Source: Candidatus Naiadarchaeum limnaeum
GTDB taxonomy: Archaea; Undinarchaeota; Undinarchaeia; Undinarchaeales; Naiadarchaeaceae
Assembly: GCA_014189685.1 (NCBI GenBank)
Contig: DVAB01000017.1
Location: 1 to 40,748, forward strand
Direction: 5' to 3'
DNA: 40,748 nucleotides
Program-made: the position numbers and the translations under genes
Notes under the pieces: generated by a model
Database searches by the model: none
The model's input: the letters and a program-made list of their open reading frames with translations, nothing else
What the model was told of the DNA's origin: nothing
Shown: in pieces, positions 1,847-10,610 of the stretch
Layout: each line of letters opens with the position of its first letter
Numbering within the stretch: position 1 is the stretch's first letter

Positions 1847-2335
1847 ATGCTAACTCCAAAACAAATTGGTATAATTAATTTCGGATTGAGTATTTTGCTT
1901 GCAGTGATAGTCATTTCAAGCTATTTTACGATTCAGGATTTAGTTAGAAAGGAAGGCGGCGAATGCCCGCTTGGAAAAGAGTGCCCTGTTCATGAGGCTT
2001 TTCCAATTCAAACAATTATTGGTTTACTAGTTGTTTCAGCTCTTGCAATTACGGGATTAATGCTAATTGTGCAGCCTGAAACAAAATTCAGAATTCCACA
2101 ATTTGGAGAAAGAAGAAAATCTGAATTCGATATAATGCTATCTGCGCTTAGCAGTGATGAACAGAAAGTCCTAAGGATTTTAAAAGAGCAACCTGGAACT
2201 CCGCAAAATACTCTCCGCCTGAAAACCGATTTCTCAAAATCAAAGTTAAGCATGCTATTGAAAGATTTGGAAACGCGAGGATTGGTAAAGAAAGAGGCAG
2301 AGGGGAAGACTTTTAGAGTTTATTTGAAAAAGTAA
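1847..2335 (+). CDS. Membrane-anchored winged-helix (MarR/TrmB-like) transcriptional regulator
   Basis: Two N-terminal hydrophobic helices flank a loop with a Cys pair (GGECPLGKECPVHE). The C-terminus is wHTH-like (EQKVLRILKEQPGTPQNTLRLKTDFSKSKLSMLLKDLETRGLVKK). GAGGT lies 4 nt upstream of the ATG. Confidence 0.65.
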   Translation: MLTPKQIGIINFGLSILLAVIVISSYFTIQDLVRKEGGECPLGKECPVHEAFPIQTIIGLLVVSALAITGLMLIVQPETKFRIPQFGERRKSEFDIMLSALSSDEQKVLRILKEQPGTPQNTLRLKTDFSKSKLSMLLKDLETRGLVKKEAEGKTFRVYLKK

Positions 2336-2447: not shown

Positions 2448-2969
2448 TTGCACATGGAAGGAGAAAAGAAAAGCAATTATGCTGTAATTGCAGTCGCGAT
2501 TGTTTTTGTAATAGGATTGGCAGTTTATACACAGTACAGGATCAGCGCCACAAACACAGAGCTCGATAGAGTTGCAATAACAATGGCAACAGCAGCGCAA
2601 AGTGGAACTCAGCAAGCAGAGCCTCGGGGAATAAGCCAGCAGATGGAGATAAACTACAATACAGATGGATACAACACTTTGCTCAAATATTACAAATCTA
2701 TAAATCTAGATGCAGAGCAGAGCAAAAAAGTTGCAGGCTTAGATGTTGAGCTTCCTTGTTGCGGATTCCAGAAAATTGTAACAAAGACTGATGGAACTGC
2801 TGATTTTCCTGGAAGCTGTCATTGCGGCCACCACGATGCAATGTACGGATTGGCAAAGTACATGGTGCAAAAGGGATACAGCAGAGAGGAAATGCAAAAG
2901 GAGCTCGATGTTTGGAAAGAGGTTTTCTTCCCAACACAGGGCGGAGGCAACTTAGGAGGCTGCGCATAA
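2448..2969 (+). CDS. Exported/membrane-anchored Cys-rich protein, PCC...CHCGHH domain, GGC C-terminal tail (P1)
   Basis: Single N-terminal TM (YAVIAVAIVFVIGLAVY). The C-terminal ~80 aa align by eye with the protein at 7043-7996 (INLDAEQSKKV..LPCC..FPGSCHCGHHDAMYGLAKYMVQKG...W..FFP). Ends GGGNLGGCA. TATA-like aacatatat about 25 nt upstream. Confidence 0.7.
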   Translation: MHMEGEKKSNYAVIAVAIVFVIGLAVYTQYRISATNTELDRVAITMATAAQSGTQQAEPRGISQQMEINYNTDGYNTLLKYYKSINLDAEQSKKVAGLDVELPCCGFQKIVTKTDGTADFPGSCHCGHHDAMYGLAKYMVQKGYSREEMQKELDVWKEVFFPTQGGGNLGGCA

Positions 2970-2971
2970 TA

Positions 2972-3208
2972 ATGAAAAAAAGCGAATTTGTTTTGGTTGT
3001 GCTTGTAATTCTGCTGTTAGCAGTAACAGTGGTGCAGGCATATCAAATCACAAGCCTAAATTCAAAAGCAACTGCGCTTGCTACCGGCAACTTCAAAGTA
3101 GGTGGGGGGGCAGAATTCTCATCATATGATGAGATGATGGCTGAACACCACGGCGGCGAAGCACAAGCACCAACAGCACCTGCACAGGGAATTGGTGGAT
3201 GCGGCTAG
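2972..3208 (+). CDS. Small exported Met/His-motif protein with GGCG C-terminus (78 aa)
   Basis: Internal Met-51 of tracked ORF 2822-3208. AGGAGG at 2954-2959 lies 12 nt upstream of ATG 2972. Signal-anchor MKKSEFVLVVLVILLLAVTVVQA, a DEMMAEHHGGE motif, and an ending of GIGGCG. The start is 2 nt after the P1 stop. Confidence 0.6.
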   Translation: MKKSEFVLVVLVILLLAVTVVQAYQITSLNSKATALATGNFKVGGGAEFSSYDEMMAEHHGGEAQAPTAPAQGIGGCG

Positions 3209-3214
3209 AAACAG

Positions 3215-3793
3215 ATGAGCAAAGTAATATCAGATACAAAAATTTGCTTAGCCGCGCTACTTATTTTGGCTATCCTAATTGGGGGAAATTTCTTTATAAA
3301 AGGATTTTCTTCTCCCATAAATTTCAATAACGCAGTTGGAAAAGCAGCCCCTGAATTTAGTTTAGAAGATATTAATGCCAAAACAATAAAACTTAGTGAC
3401 TTGCGTGGAAAAAATGTTATCTTATTTTTCAATGAGGGCGCAATGTGCTATCCCTCTTGCTGGAATCAAATGCTTGAGCTGGCAAAAGATAGCAGGCTTA
3501 ACAATGAGAAAACAGCTTCTTTTTCAATTGTCATTGATACAAAGGAAGAGTGGGAAAGAATAACTAAGCAAATGCCAGAATTTTCTCAGACAAAGATCCT
3601 TTTTGATACGACAAAAAAAGTATCAACTGACTATGGAGTTCTTACGCTGCCTTCTTCAATGCATGTGGGCTCAATGCCTGGACATAGCTATGTCATTATC
3701 GACAAAAACGGAATACTCAGATATGTTTTTGATGATCCTAATATGGGGATAAGAAACGATATGCTATCCGCTGAAGTTACAAAGCTAATATAA
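3215..3793 (+). CDS. Thioredoxin-fold protein (AhpC/TSA-redoxin/TlpA-like), membrane-anchored
   Basis: N-terminal TM, then a redoxin pattern (APEFSLEDINAKTIKLSDLRGKNVILFFNEGAMCYPSCWNQ) with a CxxC (CYPSC). Sits directly upstream of a CcdA-like gene. Confidence 0.8.
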   Translation: MSKVISDTKICLAALLILAILIGGNFFIKGFSSPINFNNAVGKAAPEFSLEDINAKTIKLSDLRGKNVILFFNEGAMCYPSCWNQMLELAKDSRLNNEKTASFSIVIDTKEEWERITKQMPEFSQTKILFDTTKKVSTDYGVLTLPSSMHVGSMPGHSYVIIDKNGILRYVFDDPNMGIRNDMLSAEVTKLI

Positions 3794-3803
3794 GTTATAG
3801 GAA

Positions 3804-4676
3804 ATGGAACTACTGATTGGAACATCGCTCATAAGCGCTTTCATCGCGGGAATAGCTTCGCTTTTTGCGCCCTGCTGCATAACTGTTTTGTTGCCAACTT
3901 ATCTTGCATCAGTATTTAGAGAGCGAAAAACAGTTTTCTTAATGACTTTTATCTTTTTGCTTGGATTGCTTGCAGTTTTCCTTCCTCTTGGGCTTGGATT
4001 CGCAGGATTGGGGCAGCTATTTTCACAATACCATAATCTCATTTTTGCCATAGGAAGTTTATTCCTCGTATCCCTTGGAATTTCTTTACTAGTTGGAAAG
4101 CATTTTTCGCTTCCATTTTCTATGCAGGTTAATATGCCAACTCAAAGCACAACTTCGGTATTTGGCTTGGGGATATTTTCAGGATTTGCAACACTCTGCT
4201 GCGCGCCTGTTTTAGCAGGTGTGCTGGCACTCTCAATACTGCCTGGCTCAATATTTTGGGGTGGAATGTACTCATTGGCATATGTAATTGGAATGACACT
4301 GCCGCTTTTCTTTTTGGCATCTTTTTTGGATAAAACAAAAATAATGAGCAAACTTGGAATCTTGAAAAAGAGATTTTCGTATATGATTGCGGGGAATAAA
4401 ATAAATCTTTCAGTGGCAGATATGATTGCAGGCATTACTTTCCTTACAATGGGGGCAATCATTTTCTATCTTGCCCAAACAAACCAACTTATTTCGCATT
4501 CCTCAACACAGCTCTCAATCAATATATTCATGGCTAAACTCAACATTGCAGTTGGAAGTTTTGCTGAAAGCATCCCACTATTTGTATGGGTTTTGATATT
4601 TGCGGCTATTCTCGGTGTTATTGTGAAAATAGCACTTCAAAAAATAAAACAAACAAGGGGCAAGAAAAAATGGTAA
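3804..4676 (+). CDS. ccdA: CcdA/DsbD-family transmembrane thiol-disulfide electron transporter
   Basis: Polytopic membrane protein with the two intramembrane Cys motifs typical of the family (FAPCCITVLLP and TLCCAPVLAG). Paired with a thioredoxin-fold gene. Confidence 0.75.
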   Translation: MELLIGTSLISAFIAGIASLFAPCCITVLLPTYLASVFRERKTVFLMTFIFLLGLLAVFLPLGLGFAGLGQLFSQYHNLIFAIGSLFLVSLGISLLVGKHFSLPFSMQVNMPTQSTTSVFGLGIFSGFATLCCAPVLAGVLALSILPGSIFWGGMYSLAYVIGMTLPLFFLASFLDKTKIMSKLGILKKRFSYMIAGNKINLSVADMIAGITFLTMGAIIFYLAQTNQLISHSSTQLSINIFMAKLNIAVGSFAESIPLFVWVLIFAAILGVIVKIALQKIKQTRGKKKW

Positions 4677-5176
4677 TCTGCATAGTTGCACTATTGGTAT
4701 TTGGAATAGCAGGGATTTTCAGCGCCACCCACAGGAAAATGTTTTATCAGGCGCTTCATTGCTTAAAGAGAAATATTATGCTGCGCCCCTGTGAAACAGG
4801 ATTTGACAGAAAATTAAAATATTCGATTGCGCGCCGAGTTTACAAATTCCCAAGATTGCATGATTTTGTTTACAGGCATTTTAATCTTTTTTCATGGCTT
4901 CTAGTCATTTTACTATTTGGAAGTTTATTCGTTAGCGCGCGCGGGCTTTATTATTTAGCCACTGAAAAAACCTGCGACCCCAATAATCCTGAGGGATGCC
5001 CATTGAGCAAAATAGCGGGCTATAATAAAACACAAGGCAATTGCGAAGTAAATATAGCTGCGGAGATAAAATCAAATCTATGTGAAGTCCCGCCCGGCTA
5101 TACCAACGAAAGCTGGTATGAGCACATGAGTCATCATCCAGATAGATATAAGGAATGTTTAAAAAATGAAACATAA
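4670..5176 (+). CDS. Hypothetical membrane protein with Cys-rich extracytoplasmic C-terminal domain
   Basis: Start taken at MVICIVALLVFG (ATG 4670, 7-nt overlap with the ccdA end). Two TM segments, then EKTCDPNNPEGCPLS...GNCEV...NLCEV...HMSHHPDRYKEC. No family recognised. Confidence 0.55.
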   Translation: MVICIVALLVFGIAGIFSATHRKMFYQALHCLKRNIMLRPCETGFDRKLKYSIARRVYKFPRLHDFVYRHFNLFSWLLVILLFGSLFVSARGLYYLATEKTCDPNNPEGCPLSKIAGYNKTQGNCEVNIAAEIKSNLCEVPPGYTNESWYEHMSHHPDRYKECLKNET

Positions 5177-5582
5177 GAAACAAGGAAAATTTACGAGCAT
5201 AGGAACAACTGCTTTTACAACCCTAGGAATCACTGCGCACAATTTCTGCCACTATTTATGTTTAGGCGTGGTGGCGCTTCTAAGTGTTGCCGGAGTAAGT
5301 GTAATTGGAATGCCTTTGATGTTCCTTGAAAGCTATGCAATTTATTTCTGGGCAATGGGACTGATTTTCTTAGCAGCTAGTTTCTATTTGCTCTATACAA
5401 GGCCGCTCTGCATTTCCAAAAACGCAATACTTGCAAATAGTGGGCTACTCATAATCGCAGTCCCGATAAAAGTAGGGAGTTTAAATTATGGATTTTGGGC
5501 AGGCGGGGGTTTGGTGGTTGCAACTGCCATATATTTATACTTAAAACCTAAATTCATAATTACAAGAGGAGGCAAAAAATGA
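5166..5582 (+). CDS. Hypothetical polytopic membrane protein with intramembrane CxxxC
   Basis: Four predicted hydrophobic helices. The first carries HNFCHYLCLGV. Overlaps both neighbours (11 nt and ATGA). Confidence 0.55.
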   Translation: MKHKKQGKFTSIGTTAFTTLGITAHNFCHYLCLGVVALLSVAGVSVIGMPLMFLESYAIYFWAMGLIFLAASFYLLYTRPLCISKNAILANSGLLIIAVPIKVGSLNYGFWAGGGLVVATAIYLYLKPKFIITRGGKK

Positions 5583-5830
5583 CAGTACAAAAACACGAGC
5601 TTGATACAAAAAGCCTTGCCATAACAGGAGGGATTATTGGATTTATTTCAGGAATTTTGGCAGCGATTATACACGGCGGAATTGGGGTTCAATCCTACAT
5701 GGGAATGGACAGAATGATGTGGGGGAGTCCGATGTTCGCAGGATGGGGGATTGTTTGGTTTACAATAATTGGCCTGTTTTATGGATGGCTTTTGGCAGTT
5801 GTGTATAATTATGTTGTAAAGAATTTCTAA
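5579..5830 (+). CDS. Small Gly-rich two-TM membrane protein
   Basis: 83 aa with helices GGIIGFISGILAAIIHGG and WGIVWFTIIGLFYGWLLAVVY. ATGA overlap with the upstream gene. Confidence 0.5.
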   Translation: MTVQKHELDTKSLAITGGIIGFISGILAAIIHGGIGVQSYMGMDRMMWGSPMFAGWGIVWFTIIGLFYGWLLAVVYNYVVKNF

Positions 5831-5844
5831 AAGGGGTGATAAGC

Positions 5845-6600
5845 ATGAAATTGAAAGGAAAAGTAGCAATTGTTACAGGCTCTACTCGTGGAATTGGAAA
5901 AGCAATTGCAATAAGGTTTGCAAAAGAGGGCGCTAGGGTTGTGGTAAACGGTGTTTCTGATATAAAAAAGTGCGATGATGTTGTAAAAGAAATTAAAAAG
6001 TTTAGCGGAGAAGCAATTTCTATTCTTGCCGATGTCTCAAAAAAGGCAGATGTTGAAAAGATGATTTCTGAAACAGTGAAAAAATTCGGCCGCATTGATA
6101 TAATAGTTAACAACGCAGGAATTCTTGATATGAGCGATTTCCTCAGTTTAACAGAGGAGCACTGGGACCGCATTTTAGCTGTTGATTTAAAAGGAACATT
6201 TCTTTGCATGCAAGCTGCAGCAAAACAAATGATAAAACAGGGGAAAAATGGAAAAATAGTGAACATTTCAAGCATTGCAGGATTTGTCGGATTTACAAGG
6301 CTTGCTCATTACTGCGCAGCTAAGGCAGGAGTTATTGAATTAACAAAAGAGGTTGCGATTGAACTTGCGCCGCACAAAATAAATGTAAATGCAATCGCCC
6401 CGGGAGCAATTGAAACTGATATGACAAAAGATATTCTTGCAGACCCGCAGGCACTTAAAGGATTCCTTGGATTAATACCACTCGGAAGAATTGGAAAGCC
6501 AGAAGATATTGCAAGCGCAGCTTTGTTTTTGGCAAGTGATGATGCGAATTATGTTACAGGTGCAACTTTAATAGTAGATGGGGGATGGACGATACAATAA
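5845..6600 (+). CDS. Short-chain dehydrogenase/reductase (FabG / glucose-1-dehydrogenase-like)
   Basis: TGSTRGIGKAIA cofactor motif, NNAG, and catalytic YCAAK. ATG 5845 is preferred over GTG 5836 because GGGGTG lies 6-12 nt upstream of it. Confidence 0.9.
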   Translation: MKLKGKVAIVTGSTRGIGKAIAIRFAKEGARVVVNGVSDIKKCDDVVKEIKKFSGEAISILADVSKKADVEKMISETVKKFGRIDIIVNNAGILDMSDFLSLTEEHWDRILAVDLKGTFLCMQAAAKQMIKQGKNGKIVNISSIAGFVGFTRLAHYCAAKAGVIELTKEVAIELAPHKINVNAIAPGAIETDMTKDILADPQALKGFLGLIPLGRIGKPEDIASAALFLASDDANYVTGATLIVDGGWTIQ

Positions 6601-6643: not shown

Positions 6644-6787
6644 ATGGCAACCGACCCAGTATGCAAAATGGAAGTTCCTGAAAAGGAAATGGATTCAATT
6701 AGAACAAAGTATGGCACAAAAATACTTTTCTTTTGCAGCGATTCGTGCAAGAAAAATTTTGAGAAAGACCCTTCGAAATACACTTAA
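6644..6787 (+). CDS. Stand-alone YHS/TRASH-domain metal-binding protein (47 aa)
   Basis: Below the ORF-track length cut-off and found by hand. Reads MATDPVCKMEVPEKEMDSIRTKYGTKILFFCSDSCKKNFEKDPSKYT, matching the YHS pattern DPVC-x-M-x-V ... Y-x-FCS-x-x-C-x-x-x-F. Confidence 0.75.
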   Translation: MATDPVCKMEVPEKEMDSIRTKYGTKILFFCSDSCKKNFEKDPSKYT

Positions 6788-6805: not shown

Positions 6806-6997
6806 ATGACTTTAAATGAAATCGCATTATTCCTGGCCGGTGGATTCACGTGGGATGTTGTATTGCATCTTGCACTTGCAGCTTCAAGAACTAAAGTAAA
6901 AATGTTCGGCATTACATTTACGGGGGGACACAATAAAACTCTGGCCATAACCAATGCAATTATAGCAGTATTGCTGCTGTGGTACGCGCTTGCCTAA
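6806..6997 (+). CDS. Small two-TM membrane protein
   Basis: 63 aa with two hydrophobic helices. GAGGAGGTGA lies just upstream of the ATG. Confidence 0.5.
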   Translation: MTLNEIALFLAGGFTWDVVLHLALAASRTKVKMFGITFTGGHNKTLAITNAIIAVLLLWYALA

Positions 6998-7042
6998 GAT
7001 AGGTATTTGAGTGGCCTTCTAACTATATTTAATTTTTAAAAA

Positions 7043-7996
7043 ATGGCTAAGCAAAAAAAAGGGCTAAAAACAAGCTCTAAATCTAAAAAGTATTTGGGAA
7101 TTGATAGAAAACGTCTCCTCATAGGCAGTGTGATTGTAATAGTTTCTATATTGAGCATGATTATCTTGGCACAGAAACAGCAAAACAAAGAAATTAAAAC
7201 TACTGAGAACGAAACTCTTGACTTTGCTGCTCTTGCAAATGAAGTTATTCCTCAGAATGGATTTGAAACAAATGCAAAATGGGGCTGTACAGGGAAAAAA
7301 CTTGTTGAAAGCGGTGCAATAAACCTTGAAAAATTTAAATTGCTCTATGAGAGAGGAGGCAGGCCGCTAACAGAGACGCAGTTAAGCATACTGACAAAAT
7401 GCACAGATGAAACCCTGAAAATAGACAACGGAAATGCTCATTTTATGCTAAATGTTCTCTGGGCACTTGGGCTTTCAAACAAAAATGCGCTTTTGGACAA
7501 AATAGCAAAAGAGGCTGATTTTGACATAGGAAATCTCGCAAGCACAGGAGGCTGGCCACTTGGAAATATCAGTGGCGGAGAATTGTGGGGAAAATACGAA
7601 ATTATAAAGTTAAATGCAGGGCAACAGAAAATTGTTGAAAAAGTTGCGCTAAATACATACCGGCCGTGCTGCAACAATCCAACAGCTTTTCCAGACTGCA
7701 ACCACGGAGCAGCTGCGCTTGGACTGATTGAGCTAATGGCATCGCAAGGGGCAACAGAAGATGATATTTTTGAGGCTTTGAAAATCTATAATGCATATTG
7801 GTTTCCGCAGCAGTACTATGAGAATGCAATTTATTTTAAACTTGCCGAGGGAAAAGAATGGAAGGACGTTGATCCGAAAGTTGTTTTAGGCTTTAATTAT
7901 TCAAGCGCCTCAGGATGGACGCAGGTTAGCAATTACTTACGAGCCCAAGGCATCTTTAAACAAGTAGAAGGGAGCGGAGGGCAGTGCGGGGTTTAA
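7043..7996 (+). CDS. Exported/membrane-anchored protein, PCC...DCNHG domain, GQCGV C-terminal tail (P2)
   Basis: Lys-rich N-terminus plus one TM (LLIGSVIVIVSILSMIIL). Its C-terminal region is paralogous to P1 (IKLNAGQQKIV..RPCCNNPTAFPDCNHGAAALGLIELMASQG...W.FP). Ends GSGGQCGV. Stops 13 nt before copA. Confidence 0.7.
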   Translation: MAKQKKGLKTSSKSKKYLGIDRKRLLIGSVIVIVSILSMIILAQKQQNKEIKTTENETLDFAALANEVIPQNGFETNAKWGCTGKKLVESGAINLEKFKLLYERGGRPLTETQLSILTKCTDETLKIDNGNAHFMLNVLWALGLSNKNALLDKIAKEADFDIGNLASTGGWPLGNISGGELWGKYEIIKLNAGQQKIVEKVALNTYRPCCNNPTAFPDCNHGAAALGLIELMASQGATEDDIFEALKIYNAYWFPQQYYENAIYFKLAEGKEWKDVDPKVVLGFNYSSASGWTQVSNYLRAQGIFKQVEGSGGQCGV

Positions 7997-8009: not shown

Positions 8010-8216
8010 ATGGCCCATGATATAATCTGCGGAATGTATGTTGACGAGAATGCAACTCCATTTAAAGCTGAACAAGAGGGCGTGAAATATTATTTTTGCA
8101 GCAAAAACTGCCTTGAGGATTTTTTGCAGCCGCAGCAAGAGCTTAGCAAGTTGATGCTCGTTTCAATTTTTAGCATTTCACTTGGAATAACAACTGCAGT
8201 TTTTGAATCCATTTAG
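8010..8216 (+). CDS. copA: Cu(I) P1B-type ATPase, N-terminal fragment (YHS metal-binding domain plus first TM helix), ended by an in-frame TAG
   Basis: DIICGMYVDENATPFKAEQEGVKYYFCSKNCLEDF is a YHS/TRASH domain, followed by helix LMLVSIFSISLGITTAVF. The TAG at 8214-8216 is in the same frame as the ATPase core downstream. Confidence 0.8.
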   Translation: MAHDIICGMYVDENATPFKAEQEGVKYYFCSKNCLEDFLQPQQELSKLMLVSIFSISLGITTAVFESI

Positions 8217-8342
8217 AGGGTAGCTCCATTTGGCTTAACAAATGAACTGCTTCTGTTCCTGCTAGCAACTCCGATTCAATTCATAGGAGGCTACAGATTT
8301 TATCGCGGAACAATAGATGCAATTAGAGCAAGACAAGCAAAC

Positions 8343-10109
8343 ATGGATTCTTTAATTGCAGTTGGGACAACAGCTGCGTGGCTTTACAGCACAATTGTAA
8401 CTTTCTTCCCATGGGTTTTTCCGCCAGCCGCTGGAAGCATAACTCAAGTTTATTTTACTGAAAGCGGATTGATAATTGGATTTATTTTGCTCGGGAAATA
8501 TATGGAATATCGCGTAAAGGGAAAAGCAGGCGAAGCAATCCGCAAACTTCTGGACTTGCAGCCGAAACTAGCAACTGTTCTTAGGGATGGAAACGAAATT
8601 GAGATTCCAGCAGAGCAGGTTAAAGTTAATGATGTTTTAATTGTAAAGCCAGGGCAAAAAATTCCTGTTGATGGAGTTGTTATTGATGGGCACAGCTCTG
8701 TTGATGAATCAATGATAACCGGAGAATCAATTCCAGTTGAGAAATCAATAAAAGATAAAGTAATTGGAGCCACAATTAATAAGCACGGAGTTTTGAAAAT
8801 TAAAGCAACGCAAGTTGGAAGTGAAACAACTTTACAGCAAATTGTTAAAATGGTGCAATCTGCTATTGTTTCAAAAGTTCCGATGCAAAGGCTCGCTGAT
8901 TTAGTTTCAAGCTATTTTGTGCCTGCGGTTATTTTAATTGCACTCGGAGCTTTTGCGTTTTGGTATTTTGTTTATGGGATGAGCTTTCCGCTCTCATTGG
9001 CAATTTTGATTTCTGTTCTAATTATCGCATGCCCTTGCGCATTAGGAATTGCAACTCCGGCAGCAATTATGATCGGAGCCGGTAAGGGGGCGCAAAATGG
9101 AATTTTGATTAAAAGTGGAGAGGTTTTGGAAAAAGCAAAAAAAATAAACACAATTATTTTTGACAAAACAGGAACCTTAACAAAAGGAGAGCCTTCTGTA
9201 ACTGATATTTTTGTTATTGGAAAAGGAAAAGAGAAAGAGCTTTTAGAATATGCAGCCGCTGTTGAGAAAGGAAGCGAGCATCCTCTGGGGGATGCAATTG
9301 TAAAAGCTGCTGAAAACAGGGGAATAACATTGTACGATGCAAAAAGTTTTGAAGCAATTTCTGGCATGGGAGTAAAAGCAACTTACAAAGGAAGGCAGGT
9401 TTTGCTTGGAAACAGAAAGCTAATGCAGGAATTTAAAATTCCAATTGAGGAAAAAGTAGAGCAAAAAATCTCTGCGCTTGAGGAAGATGGAAAAACAGTT
9501 ATGTTTGTGGTGATTCAAGGAAAATTAATTGGAATAATTGCAGCTGCTGATACTCTTAAAGAAAATTCCGCTCCAGCTGTTCAAAAATTACAAGCAATGA
9601 GCATTGATGTTTATATGCTCACAGGAGACAATCAGAGAACTGCAAATGCAATCGCTCGAAAATTAGGAATAAAAAATGTTTTAGCAGAGGTTTTGCCAAA
9701 GGACAAAGCAAATGTAATTTCAAGCTTGCAAAAACAGGGAAAATTTGTTGCAATGGTGGGCGATGGAATTAATGATGCGCCAGCTTTAGCGCAGGCAGAT
9801 GTTGGAATTGCAATAGGAAGCGGCACAGACATTGCAAAGGAAACAGGGGGAATTGTTCTTATTAAAAATGATTTGCGAGATGTTATTGCTGCAATTGATT
9901 TGAGCAAAAAAACTGTTTCAAAAATGAAGCAAAATTTGTTCTGGGCGTTCTTTTACAATGTTGCATTAATTCCAATTGCAGCAGGCATTTTATTTATTCC
10001 ACTTGGATTAAGGCTTAATCCGATCTTGGCAGCCATTGCAATGGCTTTAAGTTCAATAACTGTTGTGAGCAATTCAATGCTTTTGAATTTCTATAAACCC
10101 AAACTTTAG
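8343..10109 (+). CDS. copA: Cu(I)-translocating P1B-type ATPase core (frame already open from 8217)
   Basis: CPC ion-path motif ([13 protein letters not shown]), DKTGTLT phosphorylation site, TGES-like actuator TGESIPVEK, and [10 protein letters not shown] hinge. Codons 8217-8342 encode the expected second helix ([19 protein letters not shown]) but contain no canonical start. Confidence 0.9.
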
Positions 10110-10123: not shown

Positions 10124-10148
10124 ATGAATTTGTTATGTGCGCCTAACC

Positions 10149-10610
10149 ATGAAAACTAAAGTTAGTATTGTGCCAATACTTGCAATAATTGCGGCACTCC
10201 TTATTGCAGGGTGTACATATTCTCAAGCCTCTAACGGAGCTGGAAATACAACAACTGCGACACCACCACCAACGACTCCACCAACCCCGCCAAGCCCACC
10301 AGCACCCCCGGGACCTACTGGAACTATAACAGCTCAAATAAAGGAATTCACAGTTGAAGGAAGCGAGTTCAAGTTTACCCCAAATTCAATTTCGGTTTCA
10401 AAAGGGGACAAAGTAAGCATAACTTTCAAAAATACTGGAAAATTCCCGCACAACCTTATCATTGATGAGCTGAATGTTGCAACAAAGACAATCAGCCCAG
10501 GGCAAACAGACACTGTTGAGTTCACAGCAAGCAAGAGCGGAACATTCGCAACCTATTGCAGTGTAGGCAACCACAGAGCACAAGGAATGGAAGGCTGGAT
10601 AGAGATTTAG
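10149..10610 (+). CDS. Cupredoxin (plastocyanin/azurin-like blue copper protein), probable lipoprotein
   Basis: Lipobox-like LLIAGC and a Thr/Pro-rich linker. Type-1 Cu ligand pattern: FPHNL ... YCSVGNHRAQGM (His, Cys, His, Met). ATG 10149 preferred over GTG 10137. Confidence 0.85.
   Translation: MKTKVSIVPILAIIAALLIAGCTYSQASNGAGNTTTATPPPTTPPTPPSPPAPPGPTGTITAQIKEFTVEGSEFKFTPNSISVSKGDKVSITFKNTGKFPHNLIIDELNVATKTISPGQTDTVEFTASKSGTFATYCSVGNHRAQGMEGWIEI

What the first reader, a model, noticed from the sequence alone, without database searches (positions are those of the whole stretch)
2937..3208. Three exported proteins of the thiol/copper array end in the same Gly-Gly-(x)-Cys-Gly/Ala tail
P1 (2448-2969) ends ...FFPTQGGGNLGGCA. 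The 78-aa protein (2972-3208) ends ...APAQGIGGCG. P2 (7043-7996, tail at 7964-7996) ends ...QVEGSGGQCGV. Each has a single N-terminal hydrophobic anchor or signal, so each tail is predicted to be outside the cell. The tail is a glycine-rich, presumably flexible arm carrying one thiol 1-2 residues from the carboxy terminus. No other protein in the window ends this way. All three genes sit in one co-directional array with a thioredoxin-fold protein, CcdA, YHS proteins, CopA and a cupredoxin. I know of no named C-terminal motif of this type. It has no TM helix, so it is unlike the PGF-CTERM/archaeosortase signals, and it is not a CaaX box. A terminal thiol on a swinging arm could be a redox or Cu(I) hand-off tail. 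The closest established analogy is the Gly-Cys-Sec-Gly tail of mammalian thioredoxin reductase. It could instead be a site of covalent modification or attachment. All functional ideas here are inference.
Basis: partly seen in the sequence, partly recalled or inferred. Interest (0 to 1): 0.72.

Follow-up and report, generated by a model that had tools for sequence, protein, structure and literature searches.

The report
Conserved C-terminal Gly-Gly-Cys thiol tail
Three membrane-anchored proteins in this archaeal copper and thiol gene cluster end in a flexible glycine-rich tail carrying one cysteine, and this unnamed tail is conserved across thousands of uncharacterised proteins from copper-handling operons of archaea and bacteria, where it most likely passes copper or electrons outside the cell.

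Summary
P1 (2448-2969), the 78-aa protein (2972-3208) and P2 (7043-7996) are the only window ORFs ending GG-x0-1-C-[GA]-x0-1. About 0.0014 matches are expected by chance.

P1 and P2 are paralogues sharing a CC...C-x-H module (hhalign 95.7%), so these are not three independent events.

- **P2 family:** at least 6,680 clusters and at least 588 species genomes, with no Pfam, NCBIfam or PDB match. Of 258 complete members, 250 keep a Cys in the last 8 residues, mostly ...GG(G/S)-C-G-V.
- **P1-like proteins:** 74 of 78 end in Cys, usually an invariant M-V-G-G-C.
- **Small proteins:** in 60 of 66 loci a small membrane-anchored protein with the same tail follows directly.

Neighbours are CcdA/DsbD, thioredoxin-like proteins, DUF1573, CopA, CsoR, cupredoxins, YHS, CopG/DUF411 and PCYCGC. 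No recurrent peptidase or transferase appears.

My best reading (about 0.45, inferred) is a mobile extracytoplasmic thiol that captures and hands over Cu(I), working with the CC...C-x-H pocket and re-reduced by CcdA/Trx where those are present. The rivals are a pure redox shuttle, a recognition or modification signal, and a disulfide staple. I found no published description.

The parts
2448..2969 (+). P1: N-terminal anchor, CCG...C-x-C-x-H module (Cys104/105, Cys124, Cys126, His128; about 2757-2834) and tail GGGNLGGCA (2940-2966)
   Evidence: all 10 full-length orthologues keep GGxNLGGC[AV] (the eleventh, P0012, is cut short of the tail); homologous to the P2 core; wider P1-like family ends in Cys in 74 of 78 cases
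2972..3208 (+). 78-aa protein: N-terminal hydrophobic segment (…AVTVVQA/YQI), low-complexity tether with MMAEHHGG, tail QGIGGCG (3185-3205); single Cys
   Evidence: orthologues end GGCG, GGCN or GGC; the same build ending MVGGC lies directly downstream of P1-like genes in 60 of 66 loci
7043..7996 (+). P2: N-in anchor, about 260-aa novel-fold domain with invariant R-P-C209-C210-x-N...D-C219-N-H221-G (7661-7708) and tail GSGGQCGV (7970-7993)
3215..3793 (+). Membrane-anchored thioredoxin-fold protein (AhpC-TSA/Redoxin, C-Y-P-S-C)
   Evidence: the same position in L085 and L086
3804..4676 (+). CcdA/DsbD-type transmembrane electron conduit
   Evidence: DsbD_TM; a CcdA/DsbD gene lies within 8 kb of P2 homologues in 38 of 78 loci, adjacent in 22, always on the same strand
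1847..2335 (+). Membrane-bound winged-helix regulator (DUF7343/MarR) with a Cys-pair loop (GGECPLGKECPVHE) between two helices
   Evidence: upstream of 49 of 78 P1-like loci
4667..5176 (+). Anchored Cys/His-rich protein (…W-x-EH-x-S-HH-x-D-x-x-x-EC), conserved partner of P1-type operons
5166..5582 (+). Polytopic membrane protein with C-H-Y-L-C in a helix (weak MerT-like hit, E 0.012)
5579..5830 (+). 2-TM protein, DUF5676-like
6644..6787 (+). 47-aa YHS-domain protein
8010..10109 (+). YHS-CopA Cu(I) P-type ATPase, 14 nt after P2; in-frame TAG at 8214-8216 in this assembly
10137..10610 (+). Exported cupredoxin

Best explanation
The Gly-Gly-Cys tail is a mobile, extracytoplasmic thiol ligand. In P2 and P1 it sits on a disordered Gly/Ser linker attached to a module with an invariant CC...C-x-H pocket. 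In the small proteins it sits at the end of a 26-70-residue tether anchored in the membrane. I propose that the tail thiolate captures Cu(I), or another thiophilic metal, at the cell surface, for instance as it leaves CopA. It then exchanges the metal with the Cys/His pocket of P1 or P2 and with the neighbouring cupredoxins, CopG/DUF411 and PCYCGC proteins. Where CcdA plus a thioredoxin-like or DUF1573 protein is encoded alongside, that pathway returns copper-oxidised thiols to the reduced, metal-binding state. Shown here: conservation, disorder, extracytoplasmic placement of P2, and genomic linkage. Inferred: metal binding, the direction of transfer, and re-reduction.
For: Conservation across deep divergence: 250 of 258 P2-family members keep the Cys and 139 of 258 have exactly four Cys, namely CC, C and the tail Cys. 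All 10 full-length P1 orthologues keep it, as do 74 of 78 P1-like proteins and 72 of 76 small proteins ending MVGGC. The tail is disordered in the AF2 model and is Gly/Ser-rich. The tail unit is tandemly repeated in P0024 (2 copies) and P0045 (3 copies), which fits more ligands rather than a terminal signal or staple. The small proteins conserve little beyond the anchor and the tail, and 54 of 76 have a single Cys, so that thiol is the functional group. 34 of 76 also carry a Met/His motif typical of copper sites. Context: 57 of 78 P2 loci hold a copper gene (CopA 36, CsoR 19, Cupredoxin_1 19, YHS 17, cupredoxin 17) and 49 of 78 a thiol-redox gene. A typical operon is CsoR-DUF1573-CcdA-P2-Cupredoxin_1-CopA. 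P2 is 14 nt upstream of copA in the window. P1-like loci hold CopG/DUF411 (19), cupredoxin (18), PCYCGC (14) and membrane proteins with CPxC or CC motifs, but CcdA in only 3 of 78, so metal genes rather than the reductase are the common denominator. Unbiased clustering finds no recurrent peptidase or transferase. Precedents: CueP receives Cu(I) from CopA/GolT and works with the DsbD-like Scs reductase system (PMC10907172); copG/DUF411 is copper-induced (PMC12341060).
Against: There are no metal-binding data. P2 tails contain no Met or His. The near-invariant M-V-G-G-C in two different families is more constrained than a free ligand needs and resembles a recognition tag. AF2 does not dock the tail on the pocket, although it cannot model metals. 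Tight CcdA adjacency in P2 operons fits a purely redox role equally well. A small P2 subclade lacks the tail yet keeps CC...C-x-H. The topology of P1 and the small protein is only weakly predicted.
Confidence: 0.45

Rival explanations
1. Redox shuttle. The tail Cys is a resolving or shuttle thiol that carries reducing equivalents from CcdA and the Trx-like or DUF1573 protein to a disulfide in the CC...C-x-H site. This would work like the C-terminal Cys tails of ribonucleotide reductase or thioredoxin reductase, making P1 and P2 end-point oxidoreductases such as a Cu(II) reductase or a repair enzyme for copper-damaged proteins.
For: CcdA is immediately upstream of P2 in 22 of 78 loci and on the same strand in all 38. 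Trx-CcdA follows P1 and the small protein in the window, L085 and L086. An even Cys count (4) in most P2 proteins permits two disulfides. Many invariant polar residues (R207, N212, D218, N220, W140, ASTGGW) look like an active site. Precedent for tail-mediated electron delivery: PMC4078304 and PMC5704485.
Against: P1-like operons almost never encode CcdA or Trx (3 and 2 of 78). Single-Cys small proteins cannot cycle alone. Tandem tail copies are hard to explain this way. There is no thioredoxin, flavin or other redox fold: no PDB match at E below 0.001.
Confidence: 0.2
2. Recognition, sorting or modification signal. The Phi-G-G-C ending is read by a dedicated membrane partner and the Cys is covalently modified or attached, for example S-lipidation at a lipobox-like V-G-G-C, or a mixed disulfide or cross-link.
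For: The invariant M-V-G-G-C is shared by two different families encoded side by side, often with 2-3 small genes per locus. V/L/I-G-G-C loosely resembles a lipobox (my knowledge of the lipobox consensus). A conserved polytopic membrane protein with invariant A-H-C-P-L-C-T follows the small genes in 36 loci.
Against: No peptidase, transferase or sortase-type enzyme recurs in 160 loci. The position of the Cys varies from last residue to seventh from the end, and internal tandem copies exist. There is no TM helix or basic cluster after the motif. The proteins already have an N-terminal anchor. P2 tails (GGGCGV) lack the aliphatic residue before GGC.
Confidence: 0.15
3. Structural or oligomerisation disulfide. 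The tail Cys simply staples the tail to the core, or links P1 to the small protein, with no catalytic or carrier role.
For: P1 has 5 Cys and the small protein 1, an even total. Tails of P1-like and small proteins match within a genome: QVGGC/QVGGC in L014 and MVGGC/MVGGC in L021.
Against: A staple would not need a long disordered Gly/Ser linker of variable length, tandem repeats, or conservation across phyla on proteins that share nothing else. These operons carry reductase rather than oxidase partners in many lineages.
Confidence: 0.1
4. Chance low-complexity ending with no function.
For: Gly-rich C-termini are common and the motif is short.
Against: Expectation is 0.0014 in the window. The tail is conserved in hundreds of sequences below 50% identity. 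Only 5 of 1174 unrelated neighbouring genes carry it.
Confidence: 0.01

Closest known systems
Salmonella CueP with the Scs (ScsB/ScsC) or DsbD reductase system; likewise TlpA-ScoI
   Same: An extracytoplasmic Cys-based Cu(I) protein fed by a CopA-type ATPase, working beside a DsbD/CcdA-family electron conduit and a thioredoxin-fold partner in copper-induced operons (PMC10907172).
   Different: No sequence or fold relationship (no Pfam hit). CueP has no C-terminal thiol arm. The proteins here are membrane-anchored and occur in archaea, Patescibacteria and Chloroflexota.
Mercuric reductase MerA C-terminal Cys-Cys tail and the MerP-MerT thiol relay
   Same: A flexible C-terminal thiol tail picks up a thiophilic metal and hands it to buried Cys ligands, with membrane proteins carrying Cys pairs in helices (my knowledge of the mer system). 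The window's 5166-5582 protein gives a weak MerT hit.
   Different: MerA is a cytoplasmic flavoenzyme with a Cys pair. Here there is a single Cys, outside the cell, no flavoprotein domain, and copper rather than mercury genes.
Redox-active C-terminal tails: thioredoxin reductase G-C-U-G, ribonucleotide reductase C-terminal Cys pair
   Same: A Gly-flanked redox residue on a disordered C-terminal arm shuttles between a partner and a buried site (PMC10840350, PMC4078304).
   Different: Those tails carry two redox residues and belong to cytoplasmic enzymes of known fold. No Sec variant was seen here.
C-terminal sorting signals (PGF-CTERM/archaeosortase, GlyGly-CTERM, MYXO-CTERM) and the CaaX box
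   Same: A short conserved C-terminal signature shared by unrelated proteins of one genome, some with an invariant Cys.
   Different: No TM helix or basic cluster follows the motif, Cys spacing to the terminus varies, no cognate sortase or protease is nearby, and no NCBIfam model hits.
PCYCGC (PF13798) and CopG/DUF411 (PF04214) envelope Cys-motif proteins
   Same: Anchored extracytoplasmic proteins with clustered Cys/His motifs, encoded in the same operons.
   Different: P1 and P2 do not match either model. hhalign of PCYCGC against P1 or P2 gives about 1% probability. Neither known family has the GGC tail.

Membership tests
P2 family (unnamed): anchored domain with RPCC...DCNHG and a GG(G/S)CG(V/A) tail | Invariant C209, C210, C219 and near-invariant H221 in the motif R-P-C-C-x-N-x-T-x-F-P-D-C-N-H-G | tested here: met
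   150 of 150 representatives keep the three Cys and 149 of 150 the His; the window protein has all
P2 family (unnamed) | Cys within the last 8 residues after a Gly/Ser-rich linker | tested here: met
   250 of 258 members; window P2 ends GSGGQCGV
P1-like family (unnamed): CCG...C-x-C-x-H module with a Phi-G-G-C tail | Invariant C104, C105, G106, C124, C126, H128 and a terminal Cys; a small tail-bearing gene immediately downstream | tested here: met
   the window has P1 at 2448-2969 followed 3 nt later by the 78-aa gene
PGF-CTERM / other archaeosortase-exosortase type C-terminal signals | Signature motif followed by a hydrophobic TM helix and a basic cluster; cognate sortase | tested here: not met
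   The sequence ends 0-2 residues after the Cys; no NCBIfam CTERM model hit; no sortase-type gene recurs
CaaX box | Cys exactly four residues from the C-terminus followed by two aliphatic residues; cytosolic substrate | tested here: not met
   The Cys is third from the end in most P2 proteins, second or last in P1 and small proteins, and varies from last residue to seventh from the end; P2 topology places it outside
Bacterial lipobox | [LVI][ASTVI][GAS]C at the end of an N-terminal signal peptide | tested here: not met
   V/L/I-G-G-C resembles the consensus, but it lies at the extreme C-terminus after a hydrophilic linker, and P2 tails lack the aliphatic residue. Whether any lipid is attached is not testable here
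Thioredoxin reductase-type G-C-U-G tail | Pyridine-nucleotide disulfide oxidoreductase domain; adjacent Cys-Sec or Cys-Cys pair | tested here: not met
   No Pfam domain in P1, P2 or the small protein; single Cys; no in-frame TGA variants
PCYCGC (PF13798) | Match to the Pfam model or a profile of family members | tested here: not met
   No hit at E up to 0.1; hhalign probability about 1%
CcmH/NrfF three-helix thiol oxidoreductase | L-R-C-x-x-C motif on a three-helix bundle | tested here: not met
   Only a weak local Foldseek match for P2 (2hl7, E 3.9, probability 0.44), not reproduced with P1; the motif is absent
CopG/DUF411, CueP, HMA/CopZ copper proteins | Match to the respective Pfam models | tested here: not met
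   No such hits for P1, P2 or the small protein. DUF411 is a separate gene in related loci

The most novel reading that the evidence does not exclude
The GGC tail may define a previously unrecognised envelope system of DPANN archaea, Patescibacteria, Chloroflexota and some Euryarchaeota. In it, several families, including membrane-tethered single-Cys mini-proteins ('a thiol on a rope'), act as protein-borne substitutes for low-molecular-weight thiols. Together they would form a multi-step surface relay for Cu(I) or reducing equivalents, with the near-invariant M-V-G-G-C read by dedicated CPxC membrane partners.
Probability: 0.22. Interest if true: 0.85.

Novelty: new variant of a known kind. 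Interest (0 to 1): 0.72.

Why it matters
Copper handling outside the cytoplasmic membrane is understood mainly from proteobacteria and a few Firmicutes. This finding points to large, unannotated protein families with a fold unmatched in the PDB and a shared C-terminal thiol signature. They sit in the copper operons of lineages with very small genomes (CPR, DPANN) and of Chloroflexota. There are at least 6,680 P2 clusters and at least 488 P1-like metagenomic loci, none with a Pfam or NCBIfam match.

If the tail is a metal or electron hand-off arm, it would be a new design for extracytoplasmic metallochaperones, and the tethered single-thiol mini-proteins would be a minimal form of it. Either way the motif gives an immediate annotation handle and a set of directly testable Cys-to-Ser experiments. 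Some carriers, such as Anaerolineae, belong to groups with cultured relatives.

Tried and rejected
- Pfam and NCBIfam scans of P1, P2, the small protein and their DPANN/CPR counterparts gave no family.
- Profile searches of PDB sequences with the P2, P1-like and PCYCGC alignments gave nothing below E 0.05.
- Foldseek against the PDB gave no match at E below 0.001 for P2 (pLDDT 90.6) or P1 (pLDDT 76.4). A weak CcmH-like local hit for P2 was not reproduced with P1 and was dropped.
- I suspected homology of P1/P2 to PCYCGC from eyeballed similarity around the second Cys cluster. hhalign gives about 1%.
- I suspected homology between the window's 5166-5582 membrane protein and the N-terminal CPxC domain of long-form P2. 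hhalign gives 1%.
- I looked for selenocysteine (TGA) variants of the tail in homologues that seemed to lack the Cys. None exist; the Cys is simply 5-7 residues from the end.
- A weak NCBIfam hit of the AHCPLCT membrane protein to isoprenylcysteine methyltransferase (E 0.016, 15 bits against a cutoff of 160, N-terminal 60 residues only) was judged to be chance.
- Literature searches for the motif, for DUF1573 plus copper, for CPR copper resistance and for PCYCGC found no description.
- Co-loss of the FASTGGW loop and the tail in one P2 subclade is suggestive, but it is probably a single evolutionary event.
Full report
**1. The observation**

- P1 (2448-2969, 173 aa) ends FFPTQGGGNLGGCA.
- The 78-aa protein (2972-3208) ends APAQGIGGCG.
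- P2 (7043-7996, 317 aa) ends QVEGSGGQCGV.

The pattern GG-x0-1-C-[GA]-x0-1-COOH matches these and no other of 157 ORFs of at least 50 aa. A scan down to 20 aa adds nothing credible. From the window's amino-acid composition about 0.0014 matches are expected among 43 non-overlapping ORFs (P about 5e-10).

The window is archaeal: it encodes GatD/GatE, a PGF-pre-PGF protein and a methanogen-type IdsA.

**2. P1 and P2 are paralogues**

BLASTP (E 9e-8) and profile-profile comparison of the two families (hhalign 95.7%, E 9e-9, 75 columns) align P1 residues 78-164 with P2 residues 181-257. The shared module has a Cys-Cys pair, a C-x-H about ten or twenty residues later, and two helices ending in (W/F)FP. 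The tail is therefore probably ancestral to this module, and the three tails are not three independent inventions.

**3. The P2 family**

An exhaustive HMMER search finds 527 representatives at 50% clustering. The word-indexed search finds at least 6,680 90%-identity clusters, all labelled hypothetical and without Pfam domains. A genome scan finds relatives in at least 588 species genomes, mostly Patescibacteria/Microgenomates and Chloroflexota (Anaerolineae), plus Micrarchaeota and Methanoperedens.

The motif R-P-C-C-x-N-x-T-x-F-P-D-C-N-H-G is essentially invariant: C209, C210 and C219 in 150 of 150 representatives, H221 in 149 of 150.

Tail statistics come from 258 C-terminally complete members.
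- 250 have a Cys in the last eight residues.
- 226 have exactly two residues after it (CGV 147, CGA 28, CSV 12).
- The six residues before it are 43% Gly, 21% Ser and 9% Pro.
- 139 proteins have exactly four Cys: the three core Cys plus the tail Cys.

AlphaFold2 gives a confident model (mean pLDDT 90.6) in which residues 310-317 fall below pLDDT 50. Foldseek finds no PDB match below E 0.001. Two members carry the tail unit in tandem, P0024 twice and P0045 three times. One small subclade lacks both the tail and the FASTGGW loop while keeping the core Cys. No selenocysteine variant was seen.

**4. The P1-like family and the small proteins**

All 10 full-length close P1 orthologues keep GGxNLGGC[AV]; the eleventh, P0012, is a partial sequence cut short of the tail. 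In L001, L085 and L086 the P1 gene is followed directly by a small-protein orthologue ending GGCG, GGCN or GGC.

In two Micrarchaeota loci a more distant P1-like protein and the next small gene end identically: QVGGC and QVGGC in L014, MVGGC and MVGGC in L021. The alignment gives invariant C104, C105, G106, C124, C126 and H128.

A metagenome scan with this alignment finds at least 488 relatives. In the 80 loci fetched:
- 74 of 78 P1-like proteins end in Cys, 62 of 72 unique sequences with M-V-G-G-C.
- In 60 of 66 loci with enough downstream sequence, a small ORF of 50-117 aa follows that has one hydrophobic segment, a low-complexity tether (median 45 residues, range 26-70) and the same ending.
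- Of 76 unique small proteins, 72 end MVGGC and 54 have a single Cys.
- 34 carry a Met/His motif (for example GWTENEKMNYEMHG, ETYEEMMARMHP, or SSYDEMMAEHHGG in the window).
- 14 begin with M-D-C-C.
- 17 loci have two or more such genes.

A further set of roughly 50-aa anchored mini-proteins ends GGGCG[RI]. The tail is thus a signature shared by at least three, probably four, families.

**5. Genomic context**

Counts below are within 8 kb of 78 P2 homologues.

| Neighbour | Loci | Note |
|---|---|---|
| CcdA/DsbD | 38 | adjacent in 22, always same strand |
| CopA | 36 | |
| DUF1573 | 30 | |
| Response regulator | 27 | |
| Histidine kinase | 18 | |
| CsoR | 19 | |
| Cupredoxin_1 | 19 | |
| YHS | 17 | |
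| Cupredoxin | 17 | |
| Thioredoxin-like | 13 | |

In total 66 of 78 loci hold a copper or thiol-redox gene. The typical CPR operon is CsoR-DUF1573-CcdA-P2-Cupredoxin_1-CopA-(HMA-DsbD_2-Cupredoxin_1). In the window and in near-identical contigs, P2 lies 14 nt upstream of copA.

P1-like loci are led by a membrane-bound DUF7343/MarR regulator with a Cys-pair loop (49 of 78). Downstream they carry several recurrent genes.
- A membrane protein with invariant AHCPLCT.
- A soluble protein ending CC-x-E.
- PCYCGC (PF13798).
- CopG/DUF411 (PF04214).
- A membrane protein with a CC pair.
- DUF5676.
- Cupredoxins.

CcdA and Trx are rare there (3 and 2 of 78). Unbiased clustering of all genes in both sets of loci shows no recurrent peptidase, transferase or sortase. 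Outside the tail families, 5 of 1174 neighbouring genes end in a similar motif, and three of those five are further small-protein family members.

**6. Mechanism**

*Shown.* The tail is an ancient, strongly conserved and disordered Gly-rich ending with one Cys. In P2 it lies outside the membrane (10 K/R before the anchor). It is coupled in evolution to a CC...C-x-H module and is embedded in copper-regulated, copper-exporting and thiol-reducing operons.

*Inferred.* The thiolate is a mobile ligand that captures Cu(I) and exchanges it with the Cys/His pocket and neighbouring copper proteins. CcdA plus a Trx-like protein or DUF1573 re-reduces the thiols after copper-catalysed oxidation.

The features that favour metal over pure redox are:
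- tandem tails;
- single-Cys tethered mini-proteins, many with Met/His motifs;
- metal genes rather than CcdA as the common denominator;
- related cytoplasmic YHS/TRASH mini-proteins that end G-C-C-G.

The precedent is CueP, which takes Cu(I) from CopA/GolT and cooperates with the DsbD-like Scs system (PMC10907172).

The redox-shuttle rival rests on the tight CcdA adjacency and on known tail-mediated electron delivery in ribonucleotide reductase (PMC4078304). The recognition or modification rival rests on the invariance of M-V-G-G-C across two families and on its loose resemblance to a lipobox. It is weakened by the absence of any cognate enzyme, the variable Cys position and the internal repeats.

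**7. Comparison with known systems, and novelty**

The tail fails the defining features of PGF-CTERM-type signals, the CaaX box, the lipobox and the thioredoxin-reductase tail. P1 and P2 are not members of the PCYCGC, CopG/DUF411, CueP, HMA or CcmH families (see the membership table).

Functionally the closest analogues are CueP/Scs, TlpA-ScoI, the MerA C-terminal Cys pair with the MerP-MerT relay, and the redox-active C-terminal tails. I found no paper describing the motif or the families. I classify it as a new variant of a known kind of system, envelope copper and thiol homeostasis, built from uncharacterised families with a new shared signature.

**8. Verdict**

Interest 0.72.

Noticed in passing
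window 8214-8216 (within copA 8010-10109): copA carries an in-frame TAG. Two near-identical contigs (L082, L083) read TAT (Tyr) there and TAC instead of TCC two codons upstream, so this assembly has a nonsense variant, an error or a pseudogene. TAG is otherwise a normal stop here (9 of 43 ORFs).
   Followed up: partly
L060 1747-1971; L085 4037-4192; L001 11937-12038: Small, apparently cytoplasmic YHS/TRASH-like proteins in related copper loci end in G-C-C-G-COOH (…KKKKGGGCCG, …GHGCCG, …CHGCCG). This may be a cytoplasmic counterpart of the exported GGC tail. No equivalent ORF exists in the window.
   Followed up: partly
window 1847-2335; 49 of 78 P1-like loci in L088-L167: The DUF7343/MarR winged-helix regulator has two N-terminal helices flanking a loop with a conserved Cys pair (GGECPLGKECPVHE in the window). 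This suggests a membrane-bound one-component sensor of extracytoplasmic metal or redox state.
   Followed up: partly
L005 7401-8822; P0018-P0074 long forms; L116 2995-3621: About a third of P2 homologues are 450-510 aa, with an N-terminal polytopic domain carrying a near-invariant G-C-P-x-C-G…FPLxGLE motif. The same domain also occurs as a free-standing gene. It has no Pfam match.
   Followed up: partly
P0024, P0045 (P2 family): The tail unit is duplicated (…GGGGCGV…GGGGCGV) or triplicated (…SCGV…SCGV…SCGV) in tandem.
   Followed up: yes
P0136, P0138, P0140, P0150, P0154: A P2 subclade (core D-C-S-H-G) has lost both the terminal Cys and the FASTGGW loop. Loop and tail presence are associated (233/17/2/6), but this is probably one evolutionary event.
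   Followed up: partly
L110 4282-4431; L115 6578-6733; L117 5481-5624; L134 305-457; L141 8403-8555: Roughly 50-aa anchored mini-proteins end …Y-P-x-Q-Y-x-G-G-G-C-G-[RI]. Where neighbours were inspected (L115, L117, L141) each is followed by a 150-aa protein with a C2H2 zinc finger, one TM helix and a weakly thioredoxin-like ectodomain.
   Followed up: no
L116 6318-6905, 6887-7396, 7381-7845, 8192-8686, 8686-8952 and homologues: P1-like operons carry a membrane protein with invariant A-H-C-P-L-C-T (36 loci) and a soluble protein ending C-C-x-E-COOH (28 loci). They also carry PCYCGC, a membrane protein with a CC pair, and an anchored protein with W-x-EH-x-x-HH…C that matches the C-terminal part of window 4667-5176.
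   Followed up: partly
L013 6476-6979 with 6969-7817, and 30 of 78 P2 loci: An Ig-like DUF1573 protein with a C-x-C motif is paired with CcdA. This is reminiscent of the DsbD alpha (Ig-fold) plus beta (membrane) arrangement as separate genes.
   Followed up: no
L020, L022, L023, L049 and others: Several TPA MAG contigs titled 'uncultured Gammaproteobacteria' carry the same DUF1573-CcdA-P2-RR-HK order as Woesebacteria/Roizmanbacteria contigs, so the taxonomic labels look doubtful.
   Followed up: no
window 5836-6600: A cytoplasmic short-chain dehydrogenase (adh_short_C2) sits co-directionally in the middle of the copper/thiol array. It is absent from the equivalent position in L001 and is probably unrelated.
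   Followed up: no
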